A DNA stretch of 34,596 nucleotides, taken from IMG/VR virus record IMGVR_UViG_2657244943_000010; one strand, 5' to 3'. The translations under genes were made by a program, and so were the position numbers. Below, in pieces: positions 1,800 to 34,596 of this stretch; position 1 is the first letter of the stretch; each line of letters starts with the position of its first letter. Under the pieces are notes generated by a model. The model was not told the origin of the DNA. It was given only the letters and a program-made list of their open reading frames with translations, and searched no databases. This stretch comes from a virus. Lineage: Duplodnaviria; Heunggongvirae; Uroviricota; Caudoviricetes.

Positions 1800-2141
1800 A
1801 TGAAACAGCAACGTAATTCACGCTTTCGTAATGGTGCTGAACGCCACGCTAACCGTTTCGCTACCAGTGCATCACGCAGCAACATCCGCTACAGCCTGAG
1901 TGATACACACGCAACGCCGGATGGCTACCCAGTAAAACAAATCGGCGAGCATGCCTGGCTGATTGAGAAAGCTGGAATCGTGGTCCACAAATGCCCACGC
2001 AATCCGTTTACCGGAAACCGCATTTTTGCATTGAGCTGCGGCGACAATCAATTCGGGCAGGATTTCACATTATACGAAGCACTTCGCACGGTTGATCGTC
2101 TGCTGCGTGGGCAAAGTTTTATTAAACAGGCTGATTTATAA
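1800..2141 (+). CDS. Hypothetical early-operon protein (113 aa)
   Basis: ORF with GGGAG RBS, tightly packed after cox; no family confidently recognised. Confidence 0.6.
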   Translation: MKQQRNSRFRNGAERHANRFATSASRSNIRYSLSDTHATPDGYPVKQIGEHAWLIEKAGIVVHKCPRNPFTGNRIFALSCGDNQFGQDFTLYEALRTVDRLLRGQSFIKQADL

Positions 2142-2151
2142 CAGGTGCTTT

Positions 2152-2430
2152 ATGACCAAAGAGCATGCACAAGGTGTATTTATCCGTTTTATTGATTTTC
2201 GCGGTGAACTGTTATTACGCGCATCAGCCATTGACGGAGTTGTTCCATCCGAAAAAAACGCAGCTACTTACGTTTATCTGAACGGTACGCGCCTGACTGT
2301 GGAGCTTCCGTACCAGACCGTGCGAGAAATCATTAGCGAAGCTGAAAAGGCACGTCAGGTTAATGGCGATGAACCATATATCGAAATTATTTGTATGGAT
2401 TCAGAAGCTGAAATTCAGAAAGCAGATTAA
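2152..2430 (+). CDS. Hypothetical early-operon protein (92 aa)
   Basis: Internal ATG of track ORF 2092..2430 chosen to avoid overlap with the upstream gene; weak RBS. Confidence 0.5.
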   Translation: MTKEHAQGVFIRFIDFRGELLLRASAIDGVVPSEKNAATYVYLNGTRLTVELPYQTVREIISEAEKARQVNGDEPYIEIICMDSEAEIQKAD

Positions 2431-2441
2431 AGGGCGTTGCG

Positions 2442-2684
2442 ATGGGCAAAGAATATAAAACTCTCATTAACAAAGCACTTGAACGATTTTATTTTCGCTT
2501 AAGTGCATCAGGCGATCATGCTGAACGTGCAGCCCGTGACTCATTGACCAGGGCAATCCGGAGTTTGTATGACGTCGCTTTTTACGCTGATGATCTGGAT
2601 GCACTTAACGAACTTTCCGAGCTGATCTGTGCCGCAGAATGCGGGGAACATATTGAACCGTATAAGCTGGGGAATATTGCATGA
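2442..2684 (+). CDS. Hypothetical early-operon protein (80 aa)
   Basis: ORF with AAAGGG RBS; helical, charged composition. Confidence 0.6.
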   Translation: MGKEYKTLINKALERFYFRLSASGDHAERAARDSLTRAIRSLYDVAFYADDLDALNELSELICAAECGEHIEPYKLGNIA

Positions 2685-2794
2685 GTATATTTATCTCATG
2701 GCTTGTTCTGATTATTTCGGTGGCCTGCGCCATTGGGATTATGCGAATTATTCATTCAGTAAAAAAGATTGAACGCTTTTTCACTGGCGAATAA
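2681..2794 (+). CDS. Small hydrophobic peptide (37 aa), translationally coupled
   Basis: ATG 2681 overlaps the TGA of the upstream ORF (ATGA); translation MSIFISWLVLIISVACAIGIMRIIHSVKKIERFFTGE has one predicted TM helix; below the ORF-track size cutoff. Confidence 0.35.
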   Translation: MSIFISWLVLIISVACAIGIMRIIHSVKKIERFFTGE

Positions 2795-2880
2795 CAGAGC
2801 AAATAAAACCACAGGTTAAATAAGAAAATGTAAAAACAATCCGCATTCGCGGAGGTATTCGCACACGCCAAGGAGGCGTA

Positions 2881-3084
2881 ATGGCAATTAAGCATTTTCC
2901 TGTCGTTCGTTTTACCTCCAGAGGACGTGAATACGAAGTCGACGAACGCCTGATTACCACAATCGACAAACACCGTTCAGAAAAGGATGCACATCACATC
3001 TATCTCACTGACGGCACTTACTTCTGCGCCACGAATGTGGTGCGGGTGAACCTTATCCGACAGGTACAGGAGTCACGCAGATGA
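2881..3084 (+). CDS. Hypothetical protein (67 aa)
   Basis: ORF with AAGGAGG RBS 6 nt upstream. Confidence 0.6.
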   Translation: MAIKHFPVVRFTSRGREYEVDERLITTIDKHRSEKDAHHIYLTDGTYFCATNVVRVNLIRQVQESRR

Positions 3085-23403: not shown

Positions 23404-23743
23404 TAAACCGCTTTACATTGATTTGCTCATCACCGGCCGCAATCTCACGCTGAACAGCGCCAGTGAGCCGGTGTTATGCAACAACAGGGAAAGTATTGCC
23501 CAGGACTGCCAGCACGCCATCATTGAAAGCGGACTGGCAACGCGCCTGCTGGCTGAAAAAAGCCCGACGCTTCGTGCCGACATCATGATGCAGATGACAC
23601 TGCTGATTGAAGATGATGAGCGCATCACACCTGGCACGGTCAGTGTGACAGAAGAAACCCCGCTTTCTGGTCGCCTGCTGATTAGCGCCCACACCGAAGA
23701 TTTTTTTGAACCCCTGACTTTTACGGTATCTCTTGATGATTAA
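23393..23743 (+). CDS. Putative baseplate wedge protein (gpW/gp25-like position)
   Basis: 116 aa from ATG 23393 (GGAG upstream); directly precedes the baseplate J-like gene. Confidence 0.4.
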   Translation: MHTDKPLYIDLLITGRNLTLNSASEPVLCNNRESIAQDCQHAIIESGLATRLLAEKSPTLRADIMMQMTLLIEDDERITPGTVSVTEETPLSGRLLISAHTEDFFEPLTFTVSLDD

Positions 23744-24920
23744 CGGCAAACCTACCGCAGATTACGAGCGCATTCTGGCTGATAATGGCATGCCGGTAAC
23801 CGAAGAACAGGCACGTGCTGAATTTGAAGCCATTGTCAAAGACGAAGGGCTTATCACCAACACATCCCGCATGTCGCCGTTCTGGCGACTGATTACAGCT
23901 ATCACCACAAAACCCGTAATGTGGCTGAAAGATGCGCTGGTTAATGTGGTGATGAAAAACCTGTTTCTGGCTGATGCCAGCGGTGTATTCGTTGATGTTT
24001 TTGCCTGGGCGGTAAACCTGCAACGCAAGGCCGCCACGCACGCAGCCGGCGTGATTCGTTTCACCAAAAACGACATTGATCACGCAGTTACCGTGCCGGC
24101 CGGTACGCAGATTCAGACAGAACGCATTAACGGCGTGATTTATACGCTGACCGTTGTCAGGGATACCGTTATTCCGGCAGGAACACTCAGCATGAACATC
24201 GATGTTTCTGCGGAACAGGCCGGGGCCGGCTTTAACCTTGCGCCGGGATATTACCGCATCCTTCCGGTGGCGATTGATGGTATTGCCGGTGTTGAGAACG
24301 ATGAAAACTGGCTGACCACACCGGGTGCCAACGAAGAAAGCGATGACGAGCTGCGTGATCGTGTTCGCAATCAGTTTAATCTTGCCGGCGCTTATCACAC
24401 AGATGCTGTTTACCGGGGATTAATTGCCGGCGTTGCCGGCATCAGTGCCGACCGCATCTATTTTCTGCATGACGCACCACGCGGCCCAGGCACAGCAAAT
24501 GCTTACATTCTGCTGGATACTGGCATCGCATCCGAACCGTTCGTTGATGCAGTAAACGCATTCATTAACGATGAAGGTCATCACGGACACGGTGATGATC
24601 TGCGCTGTTTTTCCATGCCTGAAACACGCCACACCCTGACCGTGACACTCTGGTTATATGCAACACTGAACCTCAGCGATGAGGAAATTCAGACGTTATT
24701 GCGCAATGTGGAAAATCTGGTTCGCTGTGCATTTCGAGAAAACAGCGATTATGACGTTCAGAAAACATGGCCGTATAGCCGTTTCAGCATGTCCAGACTG
24801 GGCGAAGAGATCCACCAGGTATTTCCACAGGTGGAGTCGGTTACATTTTCTCTTCCGGATATTCTCAGTGATCTGGCTGTTCCTCGTCTGGAATCCCTTA
24901 CTGTGGAGGTGAGCGCGTGA
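23736..24920 (+). CDS. Baseplate J-like protein
   Basis: 394 aa; size, ESDDELRDRVRNQF segment and position before gpI-like and fibre genes match baseplate J proteins. Confidence 0.65.
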   Translation: MINGKPTADYERILADNGMPVTEEQARAEFEAIVKDEGLITNTSRMSPFWRLITAITTKPVMWLKDALVNVVMKNLFLADASGVFVDVFAWAVNLQRKAATHAAGVIRFTKNDIDHAVTVPAGTQIQTERINGVIYTLTVVRDTVIPAGTLSMNIDVSAEQAGAGFNLAPGYYRILPVAIDGIAGVENDENWLTTPGANEESDDELRDRVRNQFNLAGAYHTDAVYRGLIAGVAGISADRIYFLHDAPRGPGTANAYILLDTGIASEPFVDAVNAFINDEGHHGHGDDLRCFSMPETRHTLTVTLWLYATLNLSDEEIQTLLRNVENLVRCAFRENSDYDVQKTWPYSRFSMSRLGEEIHQVFPQVESVTFSLPDILSDLAVPRLESLTVEVSA

Positions 24921-25552
24921 AACTTCCGGAGATCCCTGAACTCCCGCTCCCCACCTGGATGAATAAAGGCGAGCCGTTAACGCTGGCACATTCATCGCAT
25001 CGCTACTGGGAAAAGGTATACAGCTGGCTGACGTGGCCACTACAGCAGATTGATGTCGACACCTGCGCAGAGCCTTTACTTAACCTGCTGGCTTATCAGC
25101 GCAATATCACCCGATTTAAAGGTGAGCCGGTTTCGTTATTTCGCTTAAGAGTGAAACACGCGTTTATTAACGCTCAGGACTCGGGCGAACGCGCCGGCTT
25201 CGAACGCATCTTTAAGCGTCTTGGCGTGGGAGACGTTAAAACACTGGAACGGCAACTGCAGCATGACTGGGACGTTATTTTACTGCGCATTAATGACACC
25301 CAGTTAAGTGAAAACAACGCGCTGATGATGCAGCTCGTGCGCCAGTATGGTCGTACCTGCAGGCGCTATTTCTTTCAGGTAATCAATACAACCACTGCCC
25401 GGCTGACAGCCGGCACATTTGATGGCCATTACAGGTATCACACAGCAGAAGCAACGGTGAGAAAGGACACCATCTGGTTAACCGCTTCGCTACAGGCAGG
25501 ACATTACGGCCTGTCCGTGGAGCATTACACATTACAGGCAGACGAAGCATGA
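24917..25552 (+). CDS. Putative baseplate/tail protein (gpI-like position)
   Basis: 211 aa, GTG start overlapping J stop, GGAGG RBS; between J-like and fibre genes. Confidence 0.5.
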   Translation: MKLPEIPELPLPTWMNKGEPLTLAHSSHRYWEKVYSWLTWPLQQIDVDTCAEPLLNLLAYQRNITRFKGEPVSLFRLRVKHAFINAQDSGERAGFERIFKRLGVGDVKTLERQLQHDWDVILLRINDTQLSENNALMMQLVRQYGRTCRRYFFQVINTTTARLTAGTFDGHYRYHTAEATVRKDTIWLTASLQAGHYGLSVEHYTLQADEA

Positions 25553-27249
25553 GCACGATTATTACTGAACAGTACGAACACTGGTGTGCGAATCAGCTCA
25601 TCAGTGGAAAACCTGCGCGCCCGGATACATTTGTTTTTGCATATATTCCGGGACAGGATGAATCCGCAGAGATCCCCCGCGATGAGATACTCCCTGATGA
25701 ATCCATGATTCAGTATCGTGCGCCGGTCACCCAGTACGGCCTCCTGTCGCCGAACGCGACCGCGTTTTCCATCATTCTGGACACGACAGTCGGCGACTTC
25801 GAATACAACTGGATCGGTCTGCTGAACGAAGAAAGCGGCGTGCTCTGCATGATTGCACACACACCTCGTCAGCAAAAAATTAAAACAGCGAACGGCGTGC
25901 AGGGAAACAACCTGATCCGCACATTTTCCATGGAGTTTGACGGCGCAGCCGCAGCAATGCATATCGATGTCAGCGCTGATGTCTGGCAGATTGATTTCAC
26001 TGCACGCCTTGCAGGAATGGATGAGGCCCGCCGGCTGCTGGCGTTTGATCACTACGGTGAAGCCGCTTTTCTGGGGGATGGTTTTCAGGTCAGCTATCAG
26101 GACGGTACCGCTACTGTTGCCGCCGGCGTGGGTTATGTGGGAGGTCTGCGCGTCAGTCTGCGCGAACCTTACAGCCTGCCGGCTGCGGTCGGGGATACCC
26201 TCTGGATTGATGCAAGCTGGCAGGGATTTGTTACTGGCGAATGGAATACCGTTTTTACGTTCTGCGCCCGCCAGGAACATGCGTCTTATACAGACGGTAA
26301 CGGCTTCCGACACTTTGTCGCGCCACTTGCAAAAATGACAGGAGACGGCCCACAGGACCTGCGCCCGGAGACACCCGACGAAGAACAAAGCAATGCACTG
26401 ACAGAGCACGAAAAATCCCGCCATCATCCGGACGCAACACTGCAGGAGAAAGGCTTTGCGCAGTACAGCAACTCCACCGACAGCGACGCAGAAGACCGCG
26501 CCGCCACATCAAAGGCAGTAAAAGCCGCAATGGATAAAGCAAAAGACGCTGTTGAGCGCGACGGCGACACCATGACCGGGGAGCTGAAAATCCGTGGTGT
26601 TAATGCACTGAGGATTTTCAACGAAGCTTTTGGCCTGATTTTTCGTCGTTCGGAAGAGTGCCTGCACCTTATCCCTACCAGTGAAGGTCAGGGCGAGAAT
26701 GGCGATATTGGCCCCCTGCGTCCGTTCACTATTAATTTGCGGACGGGTGAAGTTTCCATGTCACACGCAGTATCTGTTGGCGGTGGTTCGAAAGTTAACG
26801 GTGCGTTGGGTATCGGCGTTCAGAATGCGCTGGGCGGAAACTCAATTGCTTTCGGGGATAACGATACCGGCCTGAAACAGAATGGTGATGGCCTGCTGGA
26901 TGTTTATGCCAATAGCGTGCATGTGTTGCGTTTTCAGAGTGGCAGCATTCAGAGTAATAAACCTGTAAACGTTACCGGGCGGGTAACACCGTCAGACTAC
27001 GGAAACTTTGATGCCCGTTACCAGACCAAAACAGGCGGCGTGCAGGATGTGCGTTATGGTTCCGAAATGTATTACAACCCGGGAGGTAACCAGATATCCT
27101 GGACATTTCGCTCACCTTCAGGCCATGGATTATCTGGTATTAATGTGCAGGAAACCGGAAGTAATTCGGCAGATAACATCGGCGGCGTGTATTACCGACC
27201 GCTTCAGAAACTGATTAACGGCACCTGGTATAACGTGGCGAGTGTTTAA
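25549..27249 (+). CDS. Tail fibre protein 1 (P2 gpH-like)
   Basis: 566 aa; LTEHEKSRHHPDATLQEKGFAQYSNSTDSDAEDRAATSKAVKAAMD closely parallels the conserved P2 H segment; Gly/Asn-rich distal region. Confidence 0.8.
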   Translation: MSTIITEQYEHWCANQLISGKPARPDTFVFAYIPGQDESAEIPRDEILPDESMIQYRAPVTQYGLLSPNATAFSIILDTTVGDFEYNWIGLLNEESGVLCMIAHTPRQQKIKTANGVQGNNLIRTFSMEFDGAAAAMHIDVSADVWQIDFTARLAGMDEARRLLAFDHYGEAAFLGDGFQVSYQDGTATVAAGVGYVGGLRVSLREPYSLPAAVGDTLWIDASWQGFVTGEWNTVFTFCARQEHASYTDGNGFRHFVAPLAKMTGDGPQDLRPETPDEEQSNALTEHEKSRHHPDATLQEKGFAQYSNSTDSDAEDRAATSKAVKAAMDKAKDAVERDGDTMTGELKIRGVNALRIFNEAFGLIFRRSEECLHLIPTSEGQGENGDIGPLRPFTINLRTGEVSMSHAVSVGGGSKVNGALGIGVQNALGGNSIAFGDNDTGLKQNGDGLLDVYANSVHVLRFQSGSIQSNKPVNVTGRVTPSDYGNFDARYQTKTGGVQDVRYGSEMYYNPGGNQISWTFRSPSGHGLSGINVQETGSNSADNIGGVYYRPLQKLINGTWYNVASV

Positions 27250-27809: not shown

Positions 27810-29849
27810 ATGAGCGCACTGTTAACAAAAGCATTTGAAAAGTGGGTTGCTGAATGCACTGCCAGTAATTTACCTGCACGCCCTGACGCTATTATTTTTG
27901 CCCTGATGGAGCGGGAACCAACGCGCGAAGACAATACCGTTCCGGAAGACAGAATCACATACGCTGTGAATGAACTGACCTGTGGCCAGTTAAGCCAGGA
28001 CACTATTGTGTGCAGCGCCGTTGTTCCTGATGACTGTGTTTTCAGTTATGACTGGATTTGTCTCATCCATCAGGCCAGTGGAACGTTATGCGGCGTAATA
28101 AAAACTCCCGTCAGACAGAAAACGACAGGTGAGTCACTCGTCCGCAATTTTACAATCACCTACAGAGGCATTGCTCAGTCCGCGCAAATCAGCGTCCCTC
28201 CCCAGAGCTGGCAGGTGGATATCACTCCGGAGCTGAAAACAGCACTGAAAACTCCTAATCACCTGTCAGAAATTGCAGCAGAAGGCGAAGAGGCGCAACA
28301 GGAATCCCGCGATAATCTGGGACTGAAAGTTTCAGCCATAATGGAGCCACAGGGTGATATTCGAGACCGGACTGAAGGTTGTCTGGCGATACCGGGCGCA
28401 TTTGGTTTTGGTCATATTTTTATTCCGGGTGATGCTGTCAGGTTTAACAACGAGGCTGATTTGCTGGCATGGGTAAGATGTGTGGAACCCGGAGAATATT
28501 ATGTGGAGGGGGGAAGCGGAGTACTTCCCGGCATCGCCTTCCGGGGGATGATAAGTATCCGCTGGCTAGAAGCAGAACGCTCCACACCTCTGCCACCACA
28601 TACAGCAAAGGCCATTATTTTCTATGGCATTAACGGTGATATTTATTACAACCGTTACTGGAGTACAGGAAATGGATTGCTGACTGGCTGGGAAAACCTG
28701 AAAGTCAACGAGGCTTCACTCAGGGCGCTGATTGAAACCCGCGCGCCGCTGAACAGCCCGGCGTTCACCGGTACGCCAACCACACCAACCCCACCGGATG
28801 ATGCGGTCGGGCTGGAGATGGCGAACGCGGCGTTTGTCCGCAAACTGCTCGCTGCACTGGTTGGCTCATCTCCGGAAGCCCTTGACACACTGAATGAGCT
28901 GGCAGCGGCGCTGGGCAGTGACCCGAATTTTGCAACGACGGTCACTAACGCGCTTGCAGGCAAACAGCCACTTAGTGATGTTTTAACCGCCATCAGCAGG
29001 TTAAACGCTCAGGCAGATAATCTTCTGTACTTTGATTCGGACGGGAACGCATCGCTGACACGGTTGACGCCAGAAGCCCGTTCACTGCTGGCACAGGCCA
29101 CACCGGAAGATATGCGCAGAGTGCTTGAGCTGGAAAGGTCAGACACTGTGGTGCCACAGAATAATATTTATGACCGCAGCGAAGGCGTGGTGGCCATTCC
29201 GGGGACGCTGGGATATGGAGGATATTACCGACATGAAGACAAAGTCATTTTCAGGGGAGAAAACGGCCCTGCTGATTTTATTTCCTGGGTATCCACTACA
29301 CCACCGGGCCGGTATGCGGTAGGAGACGGTACTTCATATAGCGCGCCTCAGATTATTGACAAGGAAAATCGTCTGGAAGGGATTGTTGAAATTATTATTC
29401 CGGATACAGCCTCCTCGTCTTCGCAATCGCGTGCAGACAAGCTCATTATTTTCATGAGTAAGAAGGGAGAAATGTTTATCAACTGGCTGAAATGGACCAG
29501 TGCCGGAGCCGGTCTGGCTGGCTGGGGAAATCTCAGCGCGAAGGGATTACGCTCTGCTGACTTTTGGGGAAACCCGGGGATTGACGGAGTCACACTGGCA
29601 GCAATATCTGTCGCTGACCTTGCCTCACATAAGCGTGGGGACAGGATATCAGGCGAAAAGTTACGGCATGTATCGCTTATGTTTGAGAACAATGGTAACC
29701 CGTGCGCAGCGGCATCGGTTTACAACGTATCGATGATGTACGGGTTATTGCCGGGGTCCTATTTTATTCTGAATGGCTCCAGTCAGAGTCTGAACTGTGG
29801 GAATAAAGCCAATGCCTGGTGGATTTGCCTGGTGATGAGGGCAGAATAA
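27810..29849 (+). CDS. Tail fibre protein 2 (paralogous N-terminal domain, different distal part)
   Basis: 679 aa; N-terminus shares PARPD, Y(N/D)WI, SG(V/T)LC, TP..QK and WQ(I/V)DI blocks with fibre 1; distal region has collagen-like TGTPTTPTPP and NELAAALG motifs. Confidence 0.7.
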   Translation: MSALLTKAFEKWVAECTASNLPARPDAIIFALMEREPTREDNTVPEDRITYAVNELTCGQLSQDTIVCSAVVPDDCVFSYDWICLIHQASGTLCGVIKTPVRQKTTGESLVRNFTITYRGIAQSAQISVPPQSWQVDITPELKTALKTPNHLSEIAAEGEEAQQESRDNLGLKVSAIMEPQGDIRDRTEGCLAIPGAFGFGHIFIPGDAVRFNNEADLLAWVRCVEPGEYYVEGGSGVLPGIAFRGMISIRWLEAERSTPLPPHTAKAIIFYGINGDIYYNRYWSTGNGLLTGWENLKVNEASLRALIETRAPLNSPAFTGTPTTPTPPDDAVGLEMANAAFVRKLLAALVGSSPEALDTLNELAAALGSDPNFATTVTNALAGKQPLSDVLTAISRLNAQADNLLYFDSDGNASLTRLTPEARSLLAQATPEDMRRVLELERSDTVVPQNNIYDRSEGVVAIPGTLGYGGYYRHEDKVIFRGENGPADFISWVSTTPPGRYAVGDGTSYSAPQIIDKENRLEGIVEIIIPDTASSSSQSRADKLIIFMSKKGEMFINWLKWTSAGAGLAGWGNLSAKGLRSADFWGNPGIDGVTLAAISVADLASHKRGDRISGEKLRHVSLMFENNGNPCAAASVYNVSMMYGLLPGSYFILNGSSQSLNCGNKANAWWICLVMRAE

Positions 29850-30421
29850 TGAAAATAATCGACATAAAGGCGATGAAATACCTGGAAGACGGGTCTGTTT
29901 CCTGTGAAGTGTTGTTTGAAGGGCGGGCTGATTATATTCCTTATCGTGCAGTGGAAAATGATTCTGCTGCATCAGGCCAACGGGTATGGGGAACACTGAT
30001 GAGCGGTGAGTTTGGTGAAATCATCCCCTTCACTGTAACAGCAGAGATGCTGGACAAAGAAAAAGAACTGAAAAAAGAGGAAATCAGGCGCTGGCGAACA
30101 GAACAGGAGGCGCAGCCGTTCACATTCGAATGGAACAGCAGCACATGGAATGGAGGTAAATCCTCACTGGAACGCTTATTCCCGGCAGTGATGGCAGCAA
30201 AATCTGGTGTGGCACACAATGCCACAGTATGGAGTGATGCAAATAACCAACAAATTAAATTGTCACAACAAAAGCTGGAAGAACTACTTACGGCAATGGT
30301 GCAGGCTCAGGCTGCACGCAACGATGAGATTTACCTGCGCCAGCGTGAGATGAAAAACACGCTGGCCATACTGAATAACATTGCTGCAATTAGGGCATTT
30401 CAGGTGGGCAAAGCAGAATGA
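29849..30421 (+). CDS. Putative tail fibre assembly/accessory protein for fibre 2
   Basis: 190 aa from ATG 29849 (overlaps fibre-2 stop as TAATG); assignment by position. Confidence 0.4.
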   Translation: MKIIDIKAMKYLEDGSVSCEVLFEGRADYIPYRAVENDSAASGQRVWGTLMSGEFGEIIPFTVTAEMLDKEKELKKEEIRRWRTEQEAQPFTFEWNSSTWNGGKSSLERLFPAVMAAKSGVAHNATVWSDANNQQIKLSQQKLEELLTAMVQAQAARNDEIYLRQREMKNTLAILNNIAAIRAFQVGKAE

Positions 30422-31131
30422 AATGGAAAGAGGTAATTTTACGTCCGTCTGCCATAAACATTAAATGTTCTGTGGTTTGTCTTCATCCGTGGTCAGAAAA
30501 TACCGGAAACATCAAACCATCGGGGCGTTATCTCAGCCCCGAAAATGCTGTATCTGCACTTTTACCCTACCTGAAAGAAAGCACAGAAAAAGACATTGTG
30601 GCGCTGTTGTTTTGCGCTCCTTCTGCTGGCGAGTTTTTATCACTCGCCAGGCAATTTTCAGGCGCATTTCCATTGCCAGAGGTGGGGCGAATGTCCCGCA
30701 TGATTTCCAGTCAACTTTCACTGGCCATCAGCAGAATGCAAATCCCCGCCAGACCGGCAACATCACTTCCGGAACCGATAATGCTGTCGACACAGACCAC
30801 TCGCAGCATGTCGCTGGCAGCAACCATTGCACAGGCAGCCACTCCTGCCGCCACATCACCGGAAACATTGTCATCATCGCTGCATCAGTTCATGAATGCG
30901 AGAGATAAAGCCTTACAGGAAATCGCTGATCAGCAGGCCGCACTCCGGCAAAAAGTTTGCCCGGTGTGGCGCTTTTGCTACAAGGGAGCCCTTAGCCAGG
31001 CTGCAGTGCTGATACAAAAAAACATCCCACACCCCGAGTGGGTTTTTACAGCTGTGATGCTGTTCGTCGGCGATAATCTCTCATCACTAAGGGAAGCACT
31101 ACATGACCCAGATGATTGTCCTTGCGCTTGA
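30418..31131 (+). CDS. Hypothetical protein (237 aa)
   Basis: ATGA-coupled to the upstream gene; Ser/Ala/Leu/Pro-rich, three spaced Cys pairs; no family recognised. Confidence 0.55.
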   Translation: MKWKEVILRPSAINIKCSVVCLHPWSENTGNIKPSGRYLSPENAVSALLPYLKESTEKDIVALLFCAPSAGEFLSLARQFSGAFPLPEVGRMSRMISSQLSLAISRMQIPARPATSLPEPIMLSTQTTRSMSLAATIAQAATPAATSPETLSSSLHQFMNARDKALQEIADQQAALRQKVCPVWRFCYKGALSQAAVLIQKNIPHPEWVFTAVMLFVGDNLSSLREALHDPDDCPCA

Positions 31132-31678
31132 CGGGGAAGCCATTCTGCTGCGTAACATCACCGTCAGCGCCACCATGCAACTACCGGACAAAGATATGTC
31201 CGGACAGTCAACCAGCACCACGAGCGCCCAGCAGGGAAACAAGGCTAAAGAGCTGCGCGTGTCGGGGGTTATTGATTTTAACGATGAAGCTATTCTGACC
31301 CGTATTTTTCAGCTTGCGGAGGCAACAGAAAGCAACGGTGCTAAAAAAACATATCGCATTGCTAACGCTACCGCGAAGGCAATCAATATGCGACAGGGGG
31401 TGTTTTCTGGTGGCATTGATGCCACGGAACAACAGGGAAAAATGCACTGGCAGATCACCTTTACTCTCAGGGAAAAATTAAGCGTGCCAGAGAAAGCATC
31501 CGCACGCAGCGGTTCGCAGAAAACCATCGCCAGACAGCAGACCCAGAATGGCAGCGAACAGGTACCAGACAAAGGCATGAATACGCAAAGTTCGTTCTGG
31601 AAAAAAATCAATGATGCCGTTGGCTCTGGTCTGGATGCTGTTGGCATCGGGAGCGTGAAAGAGGAAGGGAAAACATGA
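31103..31678 (+). CDS. Hypothetical tail-associated protein (191 aa)
   Basis: AAGGGAAG RBS; overlaps the upstream gene by 29 nt and is ATGA-coupled to the hub/spike gene. Confidence 0.5.
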   Translation: MTQMIVLALDGEAILLRNITVSATMQLPDKDMSGQSTSTTSAQQGNKAKELRVSGVIDFNDEAILTRIFQLAEATESNGAKKTYRIANATAKAINMRQGVFSGGIDATEQQGKMHWQITFTLREKLSVPEKASARSGSQKTIARQQTQNGSEQVPDKGMNTQSSFWKKINDAVGSGLDAVGIGSVKEEGKT

Positions 31679-33372
31679 AATTGATACAACGCTGCATGAT
31701 TAATGGCGAACGGGTGGAAATTGCCGATATAAGCCTTGTTCTTACCCTGAATGCTGCCGGTCGTGGCTTCATTTCTGTTAACAATCTGTCACCCGAACAC
31801 AGCCTTGCCGGCGCAATGGTACAAATTGATCTCGGCCGTGACGGTGAAGCATGGCGCTATTTCTCCGGCTACATTGAGCGCGATCAACCTGCTGAAAATG
31901 GCTCACGTCGCCTTTTTATTCGTGAAGCGGCTGCTGTGCTGGATTTTGATTTCCCTTGCTCCATGCAACACCCGACGTTGCGGGGGGTACTCGATAATCT
32001 GGGGCGACAAAGCGGTATCGTTTTTATCACTCCGGATGCGGATTATGCCAGTATACCAACTCCCTACATCACCCACAGCGGCAGCGGAGCACAACTGCTC
32101 AGCCAACTGGGGCGAGCATTCAGTATCAGCGATTACGTCTGGCACCCTATGCCGGACGGTTCTGTATTTGTGGGAAGCGCAGCTGATTCACGATTTGCCA
32201 GTATTACAATGCCGGATATTCCGCAACAGTACACACTCGGGCAAAGCGGCGGAAACAGCATCGACATCATGTTTATGGAAACTGTGCGACCGGGCGTGAA
32301 CCTACCGGCCGGGCGCATTACCCGTGTAGCCCTCAACAACGAGAAAATGACCCTGACATGGGAGCGCCTTACCGCCACGGGTACCCCTGTTTCCAAATCA
32401 CCATTACGCAGACAAATGGAAACACAGTTCCCGGAACTGGCCAGCGGTACGCTACATACCCGGCTGGCGCGCGTCATTGCGCCAACGGAGCCCACCACCC
32501 TGGGCGACGTGGCCGACAGTTTCCGCCCACGCTACGCCGTCGATGTGCAGTTGCTTGATGAGAACGGCAACGATAAAAGCGACACGCCCGTTTACCCGGC
32601 AGTACCGCTCCCCGTCCCCATGGCTGGCAGTGAGGCGGGATGTTTTGCCTACCCACCAGCAGGCACCATCGTGGAAATATCCAACATTGAAGGACGTCCG
32701 GACAAACCCGTTATCAGGCAAATCTTACCCGCTGGCCATAACCTGCCTGATGTAAAGCCAGGCGAACAGCTGCAGCAACAGCGCGCAGAAGTGTTTCAGC
32801 GCGTCACGACTGACGGAAGCTGGCACAGAGAAACCGATCAGCAAATCAGGGAGCATTCAGCCAGACGAACCATTAACAGCGATCAGGAAGAACGCACAAC
32901 AACAACCAGAACAACAACAGTACAGGCAAACGACATAACCAGCGTTCTGGGAACCAGCAAGCTGATGACAGGCCAGACAGAACACATTACTACTGGTCAT
33001 TATGCGATCGCAGCCGGTGAGCATATCCAGATGGTAGCGCAGGATTTGCTGACTAAACTCAAAGGGGCGACATCCACGATTGAGCGCGACCTTACTGAAA
33101 ACGTGGGAGGCCGCAGAACATGCCGGGCGGACGGTGGTCTGGAGTTTACAGCCCCGACAGTATTTATTGGTCGCGGTGGCTCACGGGAAAAATCCGGACT
33201 TAATCTGCTGACGTTGTTGATTGATATTCTGGATCTGGTTCAGTTGCTGGCCACACACACTGCAAACCACACCCACAGCAACACCGGCGCACCAACAAAC
33301 AGCAGCGAACTTGCCGCAGACGCCAAACAGGCTACGAGCCTGCGCGAAAAATACGGTGACATTATCGCCTGA
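31675..33372 (+). CDS. Putative baseplate hub/spike protein (gpD-like N-terminus, spike-like C-terminus)
   Basis: 565 aa; last gene of the tail cluster, as D is in P2; C-terminal THTANHTHSNTG contains His-x-His motifs like those at phage spike tips. Confidence 0.5.
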   Translation: MKLIQRCMINGERVEIADISLVLTLNAAGRGFISVNNLSPEHSLAGAMVQIDLGRDGEAWRYFSGYIERDQPAENGSRRLFIREAAAVLDFDFPCSMQHPTLRGVLDNLGRQSGIVFITPDADYASIPTPYITHSGSGAQLLSQLGRAFSISDYVWHPMPDGSVFVGSAADSRFASITMPDIPQQYTLGQSGGNSIDIMFMETVRPGVNLPAGRITRVALNNEKMTLTWERLTATGTPVSKSPLRRQMETQFPELASGTLHTRLARVIAPTEPTTLGDVADSFRPRYAVDVQLLDENGNDKSDTPVYPAVPLPVPMAGSEAGCFAYPPAGTIVEISNIEGRPDKPVIRQILPAGHNLPDVKPGEQLQQQRAEVFQRVTTDGSWHRETDQQIREHSARRTINSDQEERTTTTRTTTVQANDITSVLGTSKLMTGQTEHITTGHYAIAAGEHIQMVAQDLLTKLKGATSTIERDLTENVGGRRTCRADGGLEFTAPTVFIGRGGSREKSGLNLLTLLIDILDLVQLLATHTANHTHSNTGAPTNSSELAADAKQATSLREKYGDIIA

Positions 33373-33895: not shown

Positions 33896-33969
33896 GCTGC
33901 TGATGTGGCGTTTCTTTATACAAGCTGCTATTTGCGATATGCTGAACACATCAACCTGTGGAGTGCATT

Positions 33970-34596
33970 ATGAAACGAAAATCAAAGTCTGCTGCCATTG
34001 CTGCTATTACTACAGCTCTGACAGCATCACTGGCTCCGGTGCCAGCTAAAAGCACGATACTACCAACAACAGTTATTGAATCCGCGACACACGCTAGAGT
34101 GGTTTCAATGCTTACATTTGAGCATCATGATGGTCAGGTGTTTCTGCCTCTCGAAGAAGCTATTGAATATATCAACGGGCTGAATGACAACATGCGTGCC
34201 GCGCTCAATGCAGTCATTGAAGAACGACAGAACAGAGGCAAGGGAGCACTGTTTACTGACAAAACCGCAAAAATCATAAAAATATGCGAAGAGTCAATTA
34301 AGCAGCACACCCGTGTTAAAGAGGCTGTCAAAATTGTAATGGATCCGGATAACCTGGCAAAAATGTATCCGGATAGCCTGGAGCAAAGAATCGCCTATCG
34401 CAATAAACTGGTTCGTTTTGGTCGGGCAATTGCGCAGGGGGAGTTTATCGCTCGTGATGCCATCAACACCATCAAACGAAGCACCGCACCAGACAAAACA
34501 ACCAGCCTGGGCAATACGCTGTCTGACGGAAATGTGAAAGCAATGATTATTGCCGAGCATAAAAACATGGGACTCCCGGCACCGGAGTTTTCCTGA
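33970..34596 (+). CDS. Hypothetical protein (208 aa), possibly exported
   Basis: ATG 33970 with GGAG 6 nt upstream (track start 33958 is a GTG); basic N-terminus then Ala/Thr-rich segment; low-GC gene; stop TGA at window end. Confidence 0.5.
   Translation: MKRKSKSAAIAAITTALTASLAPVPAKSTILPTTVIESATHARVVSMLTFEHHDGQVFLPLEEAIEYINGLNDNMRAALNAVIEERQNRGKGALFTDKTAKIIKICEESIKQHTRVKEAVKIVMDPDNLAKMYPDSLEQRIAYRNKLVRFGRAIAQGEFIARDAINTIKRSTAPDKTTSLGNTLSDGNVKAMIIAEHKNMGLPAPEFS

What the first reader, a model, noticed from the sequence alone, without database searches (positions are those of the whole stretch)
30418..31678. Two unassigned proteins (237 aa and 191 aa) between the fibre cassettes and the hub/spike gene
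Both are tightly coupled into the tail operon (ATGA overlaps at each end of the pair and a 29-nt overlap between the two genes). The 191-aa protein may correspond to a gpU-like tail protein by position. The 237-aa protein has no family I recognise: it is Ser/Ala/Leu/Pro-rich with three spaced Cys pairs (CSVVC, CPVWRFC, CPC). An accessory or effector-like protein inside a tail operon is worth a look.
Basis: inference. Interest (0 to 1): 0.4.

Follow-up and report, generated by a model that had tools for sequence, protein, structure and literature searches.

The report
HP1-type tail hub genes orf33 and orf34
The two "unassigned" genes are this E. coli prophage's copies of phage HP1 orf33 and orf34: orf34 is a tube-shaped inner baseplate protein, and orf33 is a fast-evolving tail protein of unknown fold that only some HP1-type phages carry, so the finding is largely ordinary with one unresolved component.

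Summary
Both ORFs, the two ATGA junctions and the 29-nt overlap are real. The window is an HP1-type (P2-related) E. coli prophage.

**191-aa protein (HP1 orf34).**
- It belongs to Pfam PF25759 (E 2.5e-53).
- Its AlphaFold model has the tail-tube fold.

**237-aa protein (HP1 orf33).**
- hhalign gives 100% probability of orthology; the PHROG families it matches have unknown function.
- None of its seven cysteines is conserved across the family. The C-terminal "CPC" is a by-product of the overlap with orf34's conserved N-terminus.
- Its confident α/β model (pLDDT 84) has no relative in the PDB or BFVD.
- orf34 and orf35 (a fused gpD+gpV hub-spike) follow it in 105/105 and 96/96 loci.
- It is under purifying selection (dN/dS 0.10–0.23) but evolves fastest of the three.
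- A distant homologue was detected at baseplate-like abundance in Pseudoalteromonas phage ACA1 virions.
- The family is absent from PV94-like and C5a phages.

The most likely role for orf33 is a clade-specific minor hub or baseplate component. No evidence supports an effector.

The parts
29849..30421 (+). Context: DUF4376 protein, the assembly/chaperone-type gene of the second fibre cassette. Its stop overlaps the orf33 start (ATGA).
   Evidence: Pfam DUF4376 E 2.4e-12 and PHROG 1141.
30418..31131 (+). orf33 homologue, 237 aa. It is a clade-specific HP1-type tail protein with a predicted alpha/beta domain and a helical insertion; its function is unproven.
30529..30549 (+). Invariant family motif Y38-L-S-P-x-N-A44 of orf33, at the N-cap of helix 41-52.
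   Evidence: Y38, L39, S40, P41, N43 and A44 are invariant in the 43-sequence alignment A2.
30724..30948 (+). orf33 residues 103-177. This is a low-confidence extended segment followed by a long helical insertion, and it is a candidate partner-binding arm. It is conserved in sequence (L102, M107, P110, R129) but poorly ordered in the monomer model.
   Evidence: pLDDT is 52-64 over residues 101-150. The binding-arm role is an inference.
31103..31131 (+). 29-nt overlap of orf33 and orf34. It encodes HDPDDCPCA* in one frame and MTQMIVLAL in the other. A Shine-Dalgarno-like AAGGGAAG lies 7 nt upstream of the orf34 ATG.
   Evidence: Overlapping or abutting junctions are seen across the family (coordinates; HP1; Yersinia phage).
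31103..31678 (+). orf34 homologue, 191 aa. It is a tube-fold inner baseplate protein of the tube-initiator/ripcord class.
31103..31477 (+). orf34 residues 1-125: a tube-fold domain made of a beta-sandwich and one helix.
31190..31267 (+). orf34 residues 30-55: the near-invariant loop KDxSGQxSSTxxAEQGxKxKELRVSG. It is inferred to be the hairpin that lines the tube lumen or contacts the tape measure or hub.
   Evidence: Invariant columns K30, D31, S33, G34, Q35, S38, T39, G45, K47, K49, E50 and G55. pLDDT is below 50 for residues 36-45 in the monomer model. The role is an inference.
31586..31639 (+). orf34 residues 162-179: a conserved C-terminal amphipathic helix after a variable low-complexity linker. 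It is inferred to be an anchor arm reaching a wedge or sheath-initiator subunit.
   Evidence: Alignment A3 and the model. The role is an inference by analogy with the ripcord C-terminal arm.
31675..33372 (+). Context: orf35 homologue, 565 aa, a fused hub (gpD-like) and spike (gpV-like) protein with a His-rich apex motif.
   Evidence: PHROG 2258 'baseplate protein' E 1.9e-232, plus weak gp5-OB and VgrG matches. PMC10612066 Table S1 states that HP1 orf35 is gpD and gpV fused.

Best explanation
The two genes, together with the 565-aa gene downstream, form the central-hub module (orf33-orf34-orf35) of an HP1-type contractile tail in an E. coli prophage.

orf34 (191 aa) is the tube-like inner baseplate protein.
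- Shown: it has a tail-tube fold closest to tube initiators and ripcords.
- Inferred: it forms a ring on the gpD-like part of orf35 and nucleates tube polymerisation. Its invariant loop faces the lumen or tape measure, and its C-terminal linker and helix reach out to a wedge subunit. In this it would work like P2 gpU / pyocin PA0626 / Pam3 gp17.

orf33 (237 aa) is translationally coupled to orf34.
- Shown: it is a conserved but comparatively fast-evolving protein with an alpha/beta fold that has no recognisable relative.
- Most likely (inferred): it is a low-copy virion component that binds the hub module. It could act as an adaptor or 'glue' between the hub/orf34 ring and the gpJ/gpI wedges, in a tail that has no LysM gpX/gp53-type protein.
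- It is not indispensable to this tail architecture, because a whole clade of HP1-type phages lacks it.
For: Identity:
- PF25759 for orf34.
- hhalign probability 100% to HP1 orf33.
- HP1, K139, phiO18P and the Yersinia phage show the same three-gene order.

orf34 fold:
- PA0626 is the gpU homologue.
- An independent HHpred assignment 'gpU?' was made for ACA1 gp47 (PMC10612066 Table S1).

Inventory: gpR, gpS, sheath, tube, chaperones, tape measure, DUF2590 (gpW-like), gpJ and gpI are all accounted for. This leaves the gpU, gpX, gpD and gpV roles for orf33-35.

orf33:
- orf34 follows it in 105/105 loci and orf35 in 96/96.
- Junctions overlap or abut across the family.
- dN/dS is 0.10-0.23.
- ACA1 virion mass spectrometry detected the orf33 homologue gp46 with SC/MW 0.09, against gpW 0.08, gpJ 0.05 and gpV 0.06 (PMC10612066 Table S2). 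I verified the homology of gp46 to the family (hhalign 96.6%; HMM E 2e-38).
- No LysM or any other Pfam domain is found in the module.
Against: - No HP1-type tail has a solved structure. The sheath has no PDB sequence relative and the wedge protein only a marginal one (E 0.008). The placement of both proteins is therefore inferred.
- The mass spectrometry support for orf33 is only 2 spectra, in a distant and shorter homologue. orf34's homologue was not detected at all in that experiment.
- orf33 is absent from the complete genomes of PV94 and C5a and from 76/76 PV94-like loci. It is therefore not a core part, and the 'glue' role must be dispensable or supplied by something else there.
- orf33 evolves 2-3 times less constrained than its neighbours, which also fits a chaperone.
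- The orf34-gpU link is at fold level only.
Confidence: 0.6

Rival explanations
1. orf33 is a non-structural assembly factor. It could be a chaperone or catalyst for folding or trimerising the orf35 hub-spike, loading orf34, or attaching gpH-type fibres, comparable in role to T4 gp51/gp63 or P2 gpG. It would then be present in virions only as trace carry-over.
For: - It is the fastest-evolving and least constrained of the three genes.
- It is dispensable in the PV94 and C5a lineages, which also lack a separate tail-fibre-assembly gene.
- It sits immediately after the fibre-assembly genes.
- The virion signal is only 2 spectra.
Against: - Detection in purified ACA1 virions was at the same SC/MW as genuine baseplate proteins, and the authors report that no unexpected non-structural proteins were detected.
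- It has no similarity to the Caudo_TAP or DUF4376 chaperone families.
- ACA phages have orf33 without a canonical fibre-assembly gene.
- Its strict coupling is to orf34 and orf35, not to any particular fibre type.
Confidence: 0.27
2. orf33 is an accessory cargo, effector or counter-defence protein carried by or co-expressed with the tail. It would be delivered into the host or act during infection, and would not build the tail.
For: - The fold is unrelated to any solved baseplate chain.
- The distribution is clade-specific.
- Low-copy virion presence is compatible with a cargo protein.
Against: - No enzymatic, toxin or defence-related signature appears in Pfam, NCBIfam or PADLOC.
- Invariant residues are mostly hydrophobic or structural, with no conserved acid, His or Cys set.
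- There is no whole-gene sign of positive selection.
- It keeps a fixed position, translationally coupled inside the hub module, from Pasteurellaceae to Pseudomonas. Morons, by contrast, sit at operon ends with their own signals.
Confidence: 0.08
3. The 237-aa protein is a Cys-rich metal-binding protein whose three Cys pairs form Zn or Fe sites.
For: Seven Cys are present in this copy, and C17, C66 and C181 are invariant among close enterobacterial homologues.
Against: - No Cys is conserved across the family. Only C17 is Cys in a majority of the 43 sequences (30); the others are replaced by Ala, Gly, Thr, Ser or Val.
- CPC is missing from most members and is encoded in the overlap with orf34.
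Confidence: 0.02
4. orf34 is a DNA-binding protein or adenine glycosylase, as several GenBank records label its homologues.
For: Product names in the records for phi3, PV94, vB_YenM_324, SMHB1 and ValB1MD-2.
Against: - No such domain is found in Pfam or NCBIfam.
- The fold is a tail-tube fold.
- The position is fixed next to the hub gene in every genome examined.
- The labels look like propagated annotation errors.
Confidence: 0.02

Closest known systems
Haemophilus phage HP1 orf33-orf34-orf35 (also K139 orf37-39, phiO18P gp44-46, Yersinia phage vB_YenM_324 gp33-35)
   Same: Gene order and sizes are the same, the junctions overlap, and the position is the same: after the fibre and fibre-assembly genes at the end of the tail operon. 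Full-length homology holds for all three proteins.
   Different: Identity is only about 22-35% for orf33 and about 40-50% for orf34. This prophage has two fibre cassettes upstream. None of these genes has been studied experimentally in any of these phages, as far as the searchable literature shows.
P2 gpU / pyocin R2 'ripcord' PA0626, and other tube initiators (Pam3 gp17, Bas63 gp018, Mu N, XM1 gp11, T4 gp48/gp54 class)
   Different: No sequence-level similarity to gpU is detectable. It lacks the LysM domain that several of the top structural matches carry. At 191 aa it is much shorter than Mu N or PA0626.
P2 gpX / T4 gp53 / pyocin 'glue' PA0627 (LysM-type hub-wedge connector)
   Same: This is only a proposed functional analogy for orf33. 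The HP1-type module lacks a LysM protein, and orf33 is the one unassigned hub-module protein.
   Different: orf33 is 237 aa with an alpha/beta fold and is not LysM. There is no sequence or fold similarity. It is absent from some HP1-type phages. It is not a member of this family.
Vibrio phage XM1 gp11-gp12-gp13 (tube-like ring protein, Ig-like stabiliser, hub)
   Same: Both have a small extra protein encoded next to the tube-like baseplate protein and the hub. In XM1, gp12 sits between the gp11 ring and the wedge dimers (PMC10457771), which is a precedent for a lineage-specific inner-baseplate filler.
   Different: The gene order differs: in XM1 the extra protein follows the tube-like protein. 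XM1 gp12 is Ig-like while orf33 is alpha/beta. The XM1 baseplate chain 7kh1_A3 appears among the fold matches for orf34, but no XM1 chain appears in the 60 listed matches for orf33.

Membership tests
Pfam PF25759 (HP1_ORF34 baseplate complex protein), tested on the 191-aa protein | hmmscan score above the curated gathering threshold over the full model | tested here: met
   180.8 bits against a cutoff of 27, E 2.5e-53, model positions 2-177 of 180. All 73 homologues carry the precomputed PF25759 assignment.
P2 gpU family (Pfam PF06995), tested on the 191-aa protein | Sequence or profile similarity to gpU | tested here: not met
   No PF06995 hit at E <= 1. hhalign of alignment A3 against P2 gpU gives probability 0.1%. 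PMC10612066 reports an HHpred link at 15% identity and flags it as 'uncertain'.
Tube-initiator / ripcord class of contractile-tail baseplates, tested on the 191-aa protein | Tail-tube fold (beta-sandwich plus helix with a long hairpin) | tested here: met
Tube-initiator / ripcord class, tested on the 191-aa protein | Gene adjacent to the hub gene, and the only tube-like protein besides the major tube protein | tested here: met
   It lies directly upstream of the gpD+gpV fusion orf35.
Tube-initiator / ripcord class, tested on the 191-aa protein | Forms a ring between the trimeric hub and the first tube ring in the virion | not testable with these tools
   This needs cryo-EM or multimer modelling. 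No HP1-type tail is in the PDB.
LysM-containing baseplate proteins (gpX / gp53 / Afp7-like), tested on both proteins | Presence of a LysM domain | tested here: not met
   No LysM hit in Pfam for either protein, nor in any of the 43 orf33 family members. The orf34 C-terminus is a linker plus helix.
HP1 orf33 family (PHROG 1677 / 31292), tested on the 237-aa protein | Full-length profile similarity to HP1 orf33 and PHROG membership | tested here: met
   hhalign probability 100%, E 1.7e-49, 231 aligned columns. phrog_1677 E 1e-39 and phrog_31292 E 1.3e-73.
HP1 orf33 family, tested on the 237-aa protein | Conserved position immediately upstream of orf34 and orf35 | tested here: met
   105/105 and 96/96 loci. 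The same holds in HP1, K139, phiO18P, ValB1MD-2, phi3 and ACA2.
Virion structural protein, tested on the 237-aa protein | Detected in purified particles | tested here: inconclusive
   The only data are published mass spectrometry on the distant homologue ACA1 gp46: 2 spectra, 6% coverage, SC/MW 0.09. Nothing exists for this prophage. The 'structural protein' label in the Yersinia phage record has no traceable basis.
Cys-based metal-binding protein, tested on the 237-aa protein | Conserved Cys (or His) ligand set | tested here: not met
   Cys occupancy in 43 sequences: C17 30, C21 8, C66 12, C181 13, C187 10, C234 5, C236 6.
Anti-phage defence or effector proteins (PADLOC), tested on both proteins | Match to a known defence-system protein model | tested here: not met
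   Only chance-level Cas6 hits (E 0.05) for orf33 and none for orf34 or orf35.
Tail fibre assembly chaperones (Caudo_TAP, DUF4376), tested on the 237-aa protein | Profile similarity to these families | tested here: not met
   No Pfam hit. hhalign of A2 against P2 gpG gives 0.4%, and against this prophage's DUF4376 protein 0.2%.

The most novel reading that the evidence does not exclude
orf33 is a previously unrecognised kind of inner-baseplate connector with a fold not seen in any solved contractile-injection system. In one branch of HP1-type tails it would take the place of the LysM 'glue' (gpX/gp53) between the hub/tube-initiator and the wedges. The PV94-like branch would build the same tail without it, showing that this link in the 'minimal' baseplate is replaceable.
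Probability: 0.3. Interest if true: 0.5.

Novelty: new member of a known kind. Interest (0 to 1): 0.3.

Why it matters
HP1-type tails (HP1, K139, phiO18P, ESSI-2 and many enterobacterial, Vibrio and Pasteurellaceae prophages) are a large branch of Peduoviridae with no solved tail structure.

Assigning orf34 as the tube-initiator/ripcord corrects scattered mis-annotations ("adenine glycosylase", "nucleoid DNA-binding protein"). It also completes most of the baseplate parts list for this tail type.

orf33 remains the one hub-module gene without a role. It appears to be virion-associated, it has no fold relatives, and nature offers an experiment in the form of clades with and without it. That makes it a reasonable target for cryo-EM or genetics.

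For the genome scan itself, the finding is mostly ordinary. These are two conserved tail genes, not an effector.

Tried and rejected
1. Sequence searches of both proteins and their family profiles against PDB sequences gave only chance hits.

3. hhalign of both family profiles against every P2 tail protein and against this prophage's own tail proteins gave nothing above 3% probability. The templates were single sequences, so sensitivity is limited.

4. Pfam scans of all 43 orf33 family members individually showed no recurring domain. NCBIfam and PADLOC gave nothing.

5. The Cys-pair/metal-site idea is rejected on conservation.

6. I looked for an orf33 domain fused to the long fibres of PV94 and C5a and found none.

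7. I looked for a spike segment whose presence tracks orf33. The differences are only variable beta-helix length and tip type, with no consistent correlate.

8. The promoter/terminator scan found no internal signals within orf33-orf35 that separate the genes.

9. Literature searches for HP1 orf33/orf34, their UniProt accessions, the PHROG and Pfam ids, and vB_YenM_324 found no functional study. The K139 genome paper is not held.

10. The search for related loci with a mixed orf34 alignment failed for lack of a conserved word. I replaced it with a single-protein query.
Full report
**Observation**

The window carries ORF 30418-31131 (237 aa) and ORF 31103-31678 (191 aa) on the + strand. The sequence shows ATGA stop/start overlaps at 30418-30421 and 31675-31678, and a 29-nt overlap between the two ORFs. 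The 237-aa protein is 42% Ser+Ala+Leu+Pro and has Cys at positions 17, 21, 66, 181, 187, 234 and 236. The description is therefore accurate.

**Context**

The 1,261-bp region is 100% identical to a prophage in E. coli EC42405. It occurs at 90% identity or more in 48 of 5,426 complete E. coli genomes, always on the chromosome, and has no close relative among GenBank phages.

RefSeq annotation and my own Pfam and PHROG scans show a P2-related head module and an HP1-type tail module. In order, the tail module holds:
- gpL, gpR and gpS
- sheath (DUF2586) and tube (HP1 Orf24 family)
- holin and endolysin
- chaperones and the tape measure
- DUF2590, in the position of gpW/gp25
- gpJ-like and gpI-like wedge proteins
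- two fibre cassettes
- the three genes 30418-33372

No sigma-70-like promoter or convincing terminator separates these last three genes.

**The 191-aa protein (orf34)**

- *Family.* It matches Pfam PF25759, 'Bacteriophage HP1 ORF34 baseplate complex protein', over the whole model (E 2.5e-53). It also matches phrog_1398.
- *Distribution.* Homologues are present in 75 phage records covering the HP1 subgroup: HP1, HP2, K139, Kappa, phiO18P, F108, PV94, C5a, phi3, ESSI-2 and others. They carry inconsistent labels such as 'adenine glycosylase' and 'nucleoid DNA-binding protein'.
- *Architecture.* The alignment shows a globular domain of about 125 aa with a nearly invariant loop (KDxSGQxSSTxxAEQGxKxKELRVSG). 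A variable low-complexity linker and a conserved C-terminal amphipathic helix follow.
- *Model.* The AlphaFold2 model is confident for the N-domain (pLDDT about 90) apart from that loop.
- *Link to gpU.* P2 gpU matches PA0626 at E 3e-13, so the ripcord class is the gpU class.

At sequence level there is no detectable relationship. The authors of PMC10612066 made the same assignment by HHpred for ACA1 gp47 and likewise called it uncertain.

I infer that orf34 forms the ring between hub and tube that starts tube polymerisation, that its conserved loop lines the channel, and that its C-terminal arm docks on a wedge subunit. This is an analogy, not an observation.

**The 565-aa protein (orf35)**

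It matches phrog_2258 'baseplate protein' (E 1.9e-232) and has weak gp5-OB and VgrG signals. PMC10612066 notes that HP1 orf35 is a fusion of gpD and gpV homologues. My alignment with phages in which the two are separate genes agrees with that.

**The 237-aa protein (orf33)**

- *Family.* It has no Pfam or NCBIfam family. It matches phrog_31292 and phrog_1677, both of unknown function, and it is the full-length orthologue of HP1 orf33 (hhalign 100%, E 1.7e-49).
- *Size and hosts.* The family has 148 clusters at 50% identity among 1.84 billion representatives at E <= 1e-3. Hosts include Escherichia, Salmonella, Citrobacter, Yersinia, Providencia, Edwardsiella, Xenorhabdus, Photorhabdus, Serratia, Klebsiella and Pasteurellaceae. 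It is also found in K139, phiO18P, ValB1MD-2, ACA2 and an unannotated ORF of Pseudomonas phage phi3.
Only C17 is Cys in a majority of the 43 aligned sequences (30). The CPC tail is missing from most members. Its codons lie in the overlap, where the other frame encodes orf34's conserved N-terminal strand (L7, A8 and L9 invariant).
- *Conserved residues.* The invariant positions are G30, Y38-L-S-P-x-N-A44 and F73. W3, W25, G36, L102, M107, P110, R129, P204, F216 and G218 are nearly invariant. This set is mostly hydrophobic or structural and does not suggest catalysis.
- *Model.* The AlphaFold2 model is confident (pLDDT 84, pTM 0.75). It shows an alpha/beta domain built from residues 1-102 and 178-237, interrupted by a less ordered segment and a long helix.
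- *No solved tail of this type.* The sheath has no PDB sequence relative and the wedge protein only a marginal one, E 0.008. Placement by homology is therefore impossible.

**Comparative evidence on orf33**

- *Synteny.* In 106 related loci from viral and genome collections, orf34 follows orf33 in 105 of 105 loci with room, and orf35 follows in 96 of 96. Junctions overlap or abut throughout.
- *Rate.* orf33 is always the most diverged of the three. Close relatives show 79% identity against 93-96%. Across 81 distant loci the means are 34% against 52% and 46%.
- *Selection.* dN/dS is 0.10-0.23 for orf33, against 0.02-0.11 for orf34 and 0.06-0.18 for orf35. The gene is constrained, but less so than its neighbours, and shows no whole-gene sign of positive selection.
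- *Proteomics.* The only proteomic data I could find are for Pseudoalteromonas phage ACA1. The orf33 homologue gp46 was detected in purified virions with 2 spectra and SC/MW 0.09. That is similar to gpW (0.08), gpJ (0.05) and gpV (0.06). The orf34 homologue was not detected (PMC10612066 Table S2). I confirmed that gp46 belongs to the family.
- *Absence from some clades.* The complete genomes of Vibrio phage PV94 and Pseudoalteromonas phage C5a have no orf33 homologue in any frame (best E >= 1.5, with positive controls at E <= 1e-38). None of 76 PV94-like loci has one within 7 kb of orf34. In PV94 and C5a a long fibre gene abuts orf34 and there is no separate fibre-assembly gene.

**Interpretation**

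orf34 is a standard baseplate component of the tube-initiator/ripcord class; I put confidence at about 0.85.

orf33 is a real, conserved, translationally coupled member of the hub module. It is probably a low-copy virion protein, and it is clade-specific, not core. In P2 terms the gpX (LysM) role is the one role left unassigned in this tail, and orf33 is the only unassigned hub-module protein. My preferred mechanism is therefore a lineage-specific adaptor between the hub/orf34 ring and the wedges, with the conserved but disordered segment 103-150 as a binding arm; confidence is about 0.45-0.5.

An assembly factor that leaves only traces in virions is the main rival. It fits the weak mass spectrometry signal, the faster evolution and the dispensability in other clades. 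An effector or cargo role has no positive support. A metal-binding role is refuted as a family property.

**Novelty and verdict**

Both proteins are new members of known families (HP1 orf33 and orf34). The finding is mostly ordinary tail-gene content.

What this analysis adds:
- fold-level assignment of orf34
- an explanation for the Cys motifs
- the absence of any fold relative for orf33
- orf33's absence from PV94-like and C5a phages

Interest is modest (0.3). It would rise if orf33 proved to be a new kind of baseplate connector.

Noticed in passing
window 27810-29849: The second fibre gene is an intact 679-aa ORF in the window. It has an N-terminal tail-collar fibre domain (Pfam PF12571) and tail-fibre PHROG matches. 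RefSeq annotates the identical prophage here as two pseudogene fragments, one labelled 'shikimate transporter'. This is probably an annotation artefact.
   Followed up: partly
L114 (Pseudomonas phage phi3, NC_030940.1), roughly locus 2085-3001: A gap of about 900 nt upstream of the orf34 homologue is unannotated. It encodes an orf33-family protein of about 306 aa (HMM E 1e-51, hhalign 98.2%). The gpD-like gene between gp33 and gp34 also appears to be unannotated.
   Followed up: yes
L115/L118 (PV94), L116/L119 (C5a), L120-L199: A whole PV94-like clade of HP1-type tails lacks orf33 (0 of 76 loci). PV94 and C5a themselves also lack a separate tail-fibre-assembly gene, and a 694-977-aa fibre gene abuts orf34 directly. 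What, if anything, substitutes for orf33 there is unknown.
   Followed up: partly
Phage records: orf34 homologues are labelled 'adenine glycosylase', 'nucleoid DNA-binding protein', 'DNA-binding protein' or 'tail fiber protein' in various GenBank and RefSeq phage records. No domain evidence supports these labels, so they look like propagated mis-annotations.
   Followed up: partly
Protein P0222 (323 aa): This is a chimera of the orf33 N-terminus (about 80 aa) joined to the orf35 C-terminal half. It is most simply explained as an internal deletion in a decaying prophage that removes orf34.
   Followed up: no
Protein P0227 (527 aa): The orf33-like domain (residues 309-523) follows a 300-aa N-terminal region with Ala/Gly/Thr-rich repeats (…TAITLDGDAAATASAGG…). 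This could be a genuine fusion or a gene-calling artefact, and it is the only such architecture among 148 hits.
   Followed up: no
window 31026-31042: A small hairpin, CCCACACCCCGAGTGGG followed by TTTTT, lies inside orf33 and scores as terminator-like on both strands. It coincides with the conserved peptide NIPHPEWVF, so it is probably coding-driven.
   Followed up: no
window 33150-33372 (orf35 C-terminus) and the alignment: The spike tip carries a conserved His-rich motif (…ATHTANHTHSN…; H-T-H is conserved in HP1, K139, phiO18P, phi3, ACA2 and C5a). From general knowledge, this is reminiscent of metal-binding spike apexes in P2 gpV-type spikes. PV94 has a different, Cys-containing tip.
   Followed up: no
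window 33958-34596 and downstream in L001 (locus 23555-27020): Beyond the tail operon, the prophage end carries a hypothetical gene, a YafO-family toxin, an ATP-dependent nuclease and a truncated DNA methyltransferase, ahead of raiA/bamD. This looks like a typical cargo or defence island at the prophage end.
   Followed up: no
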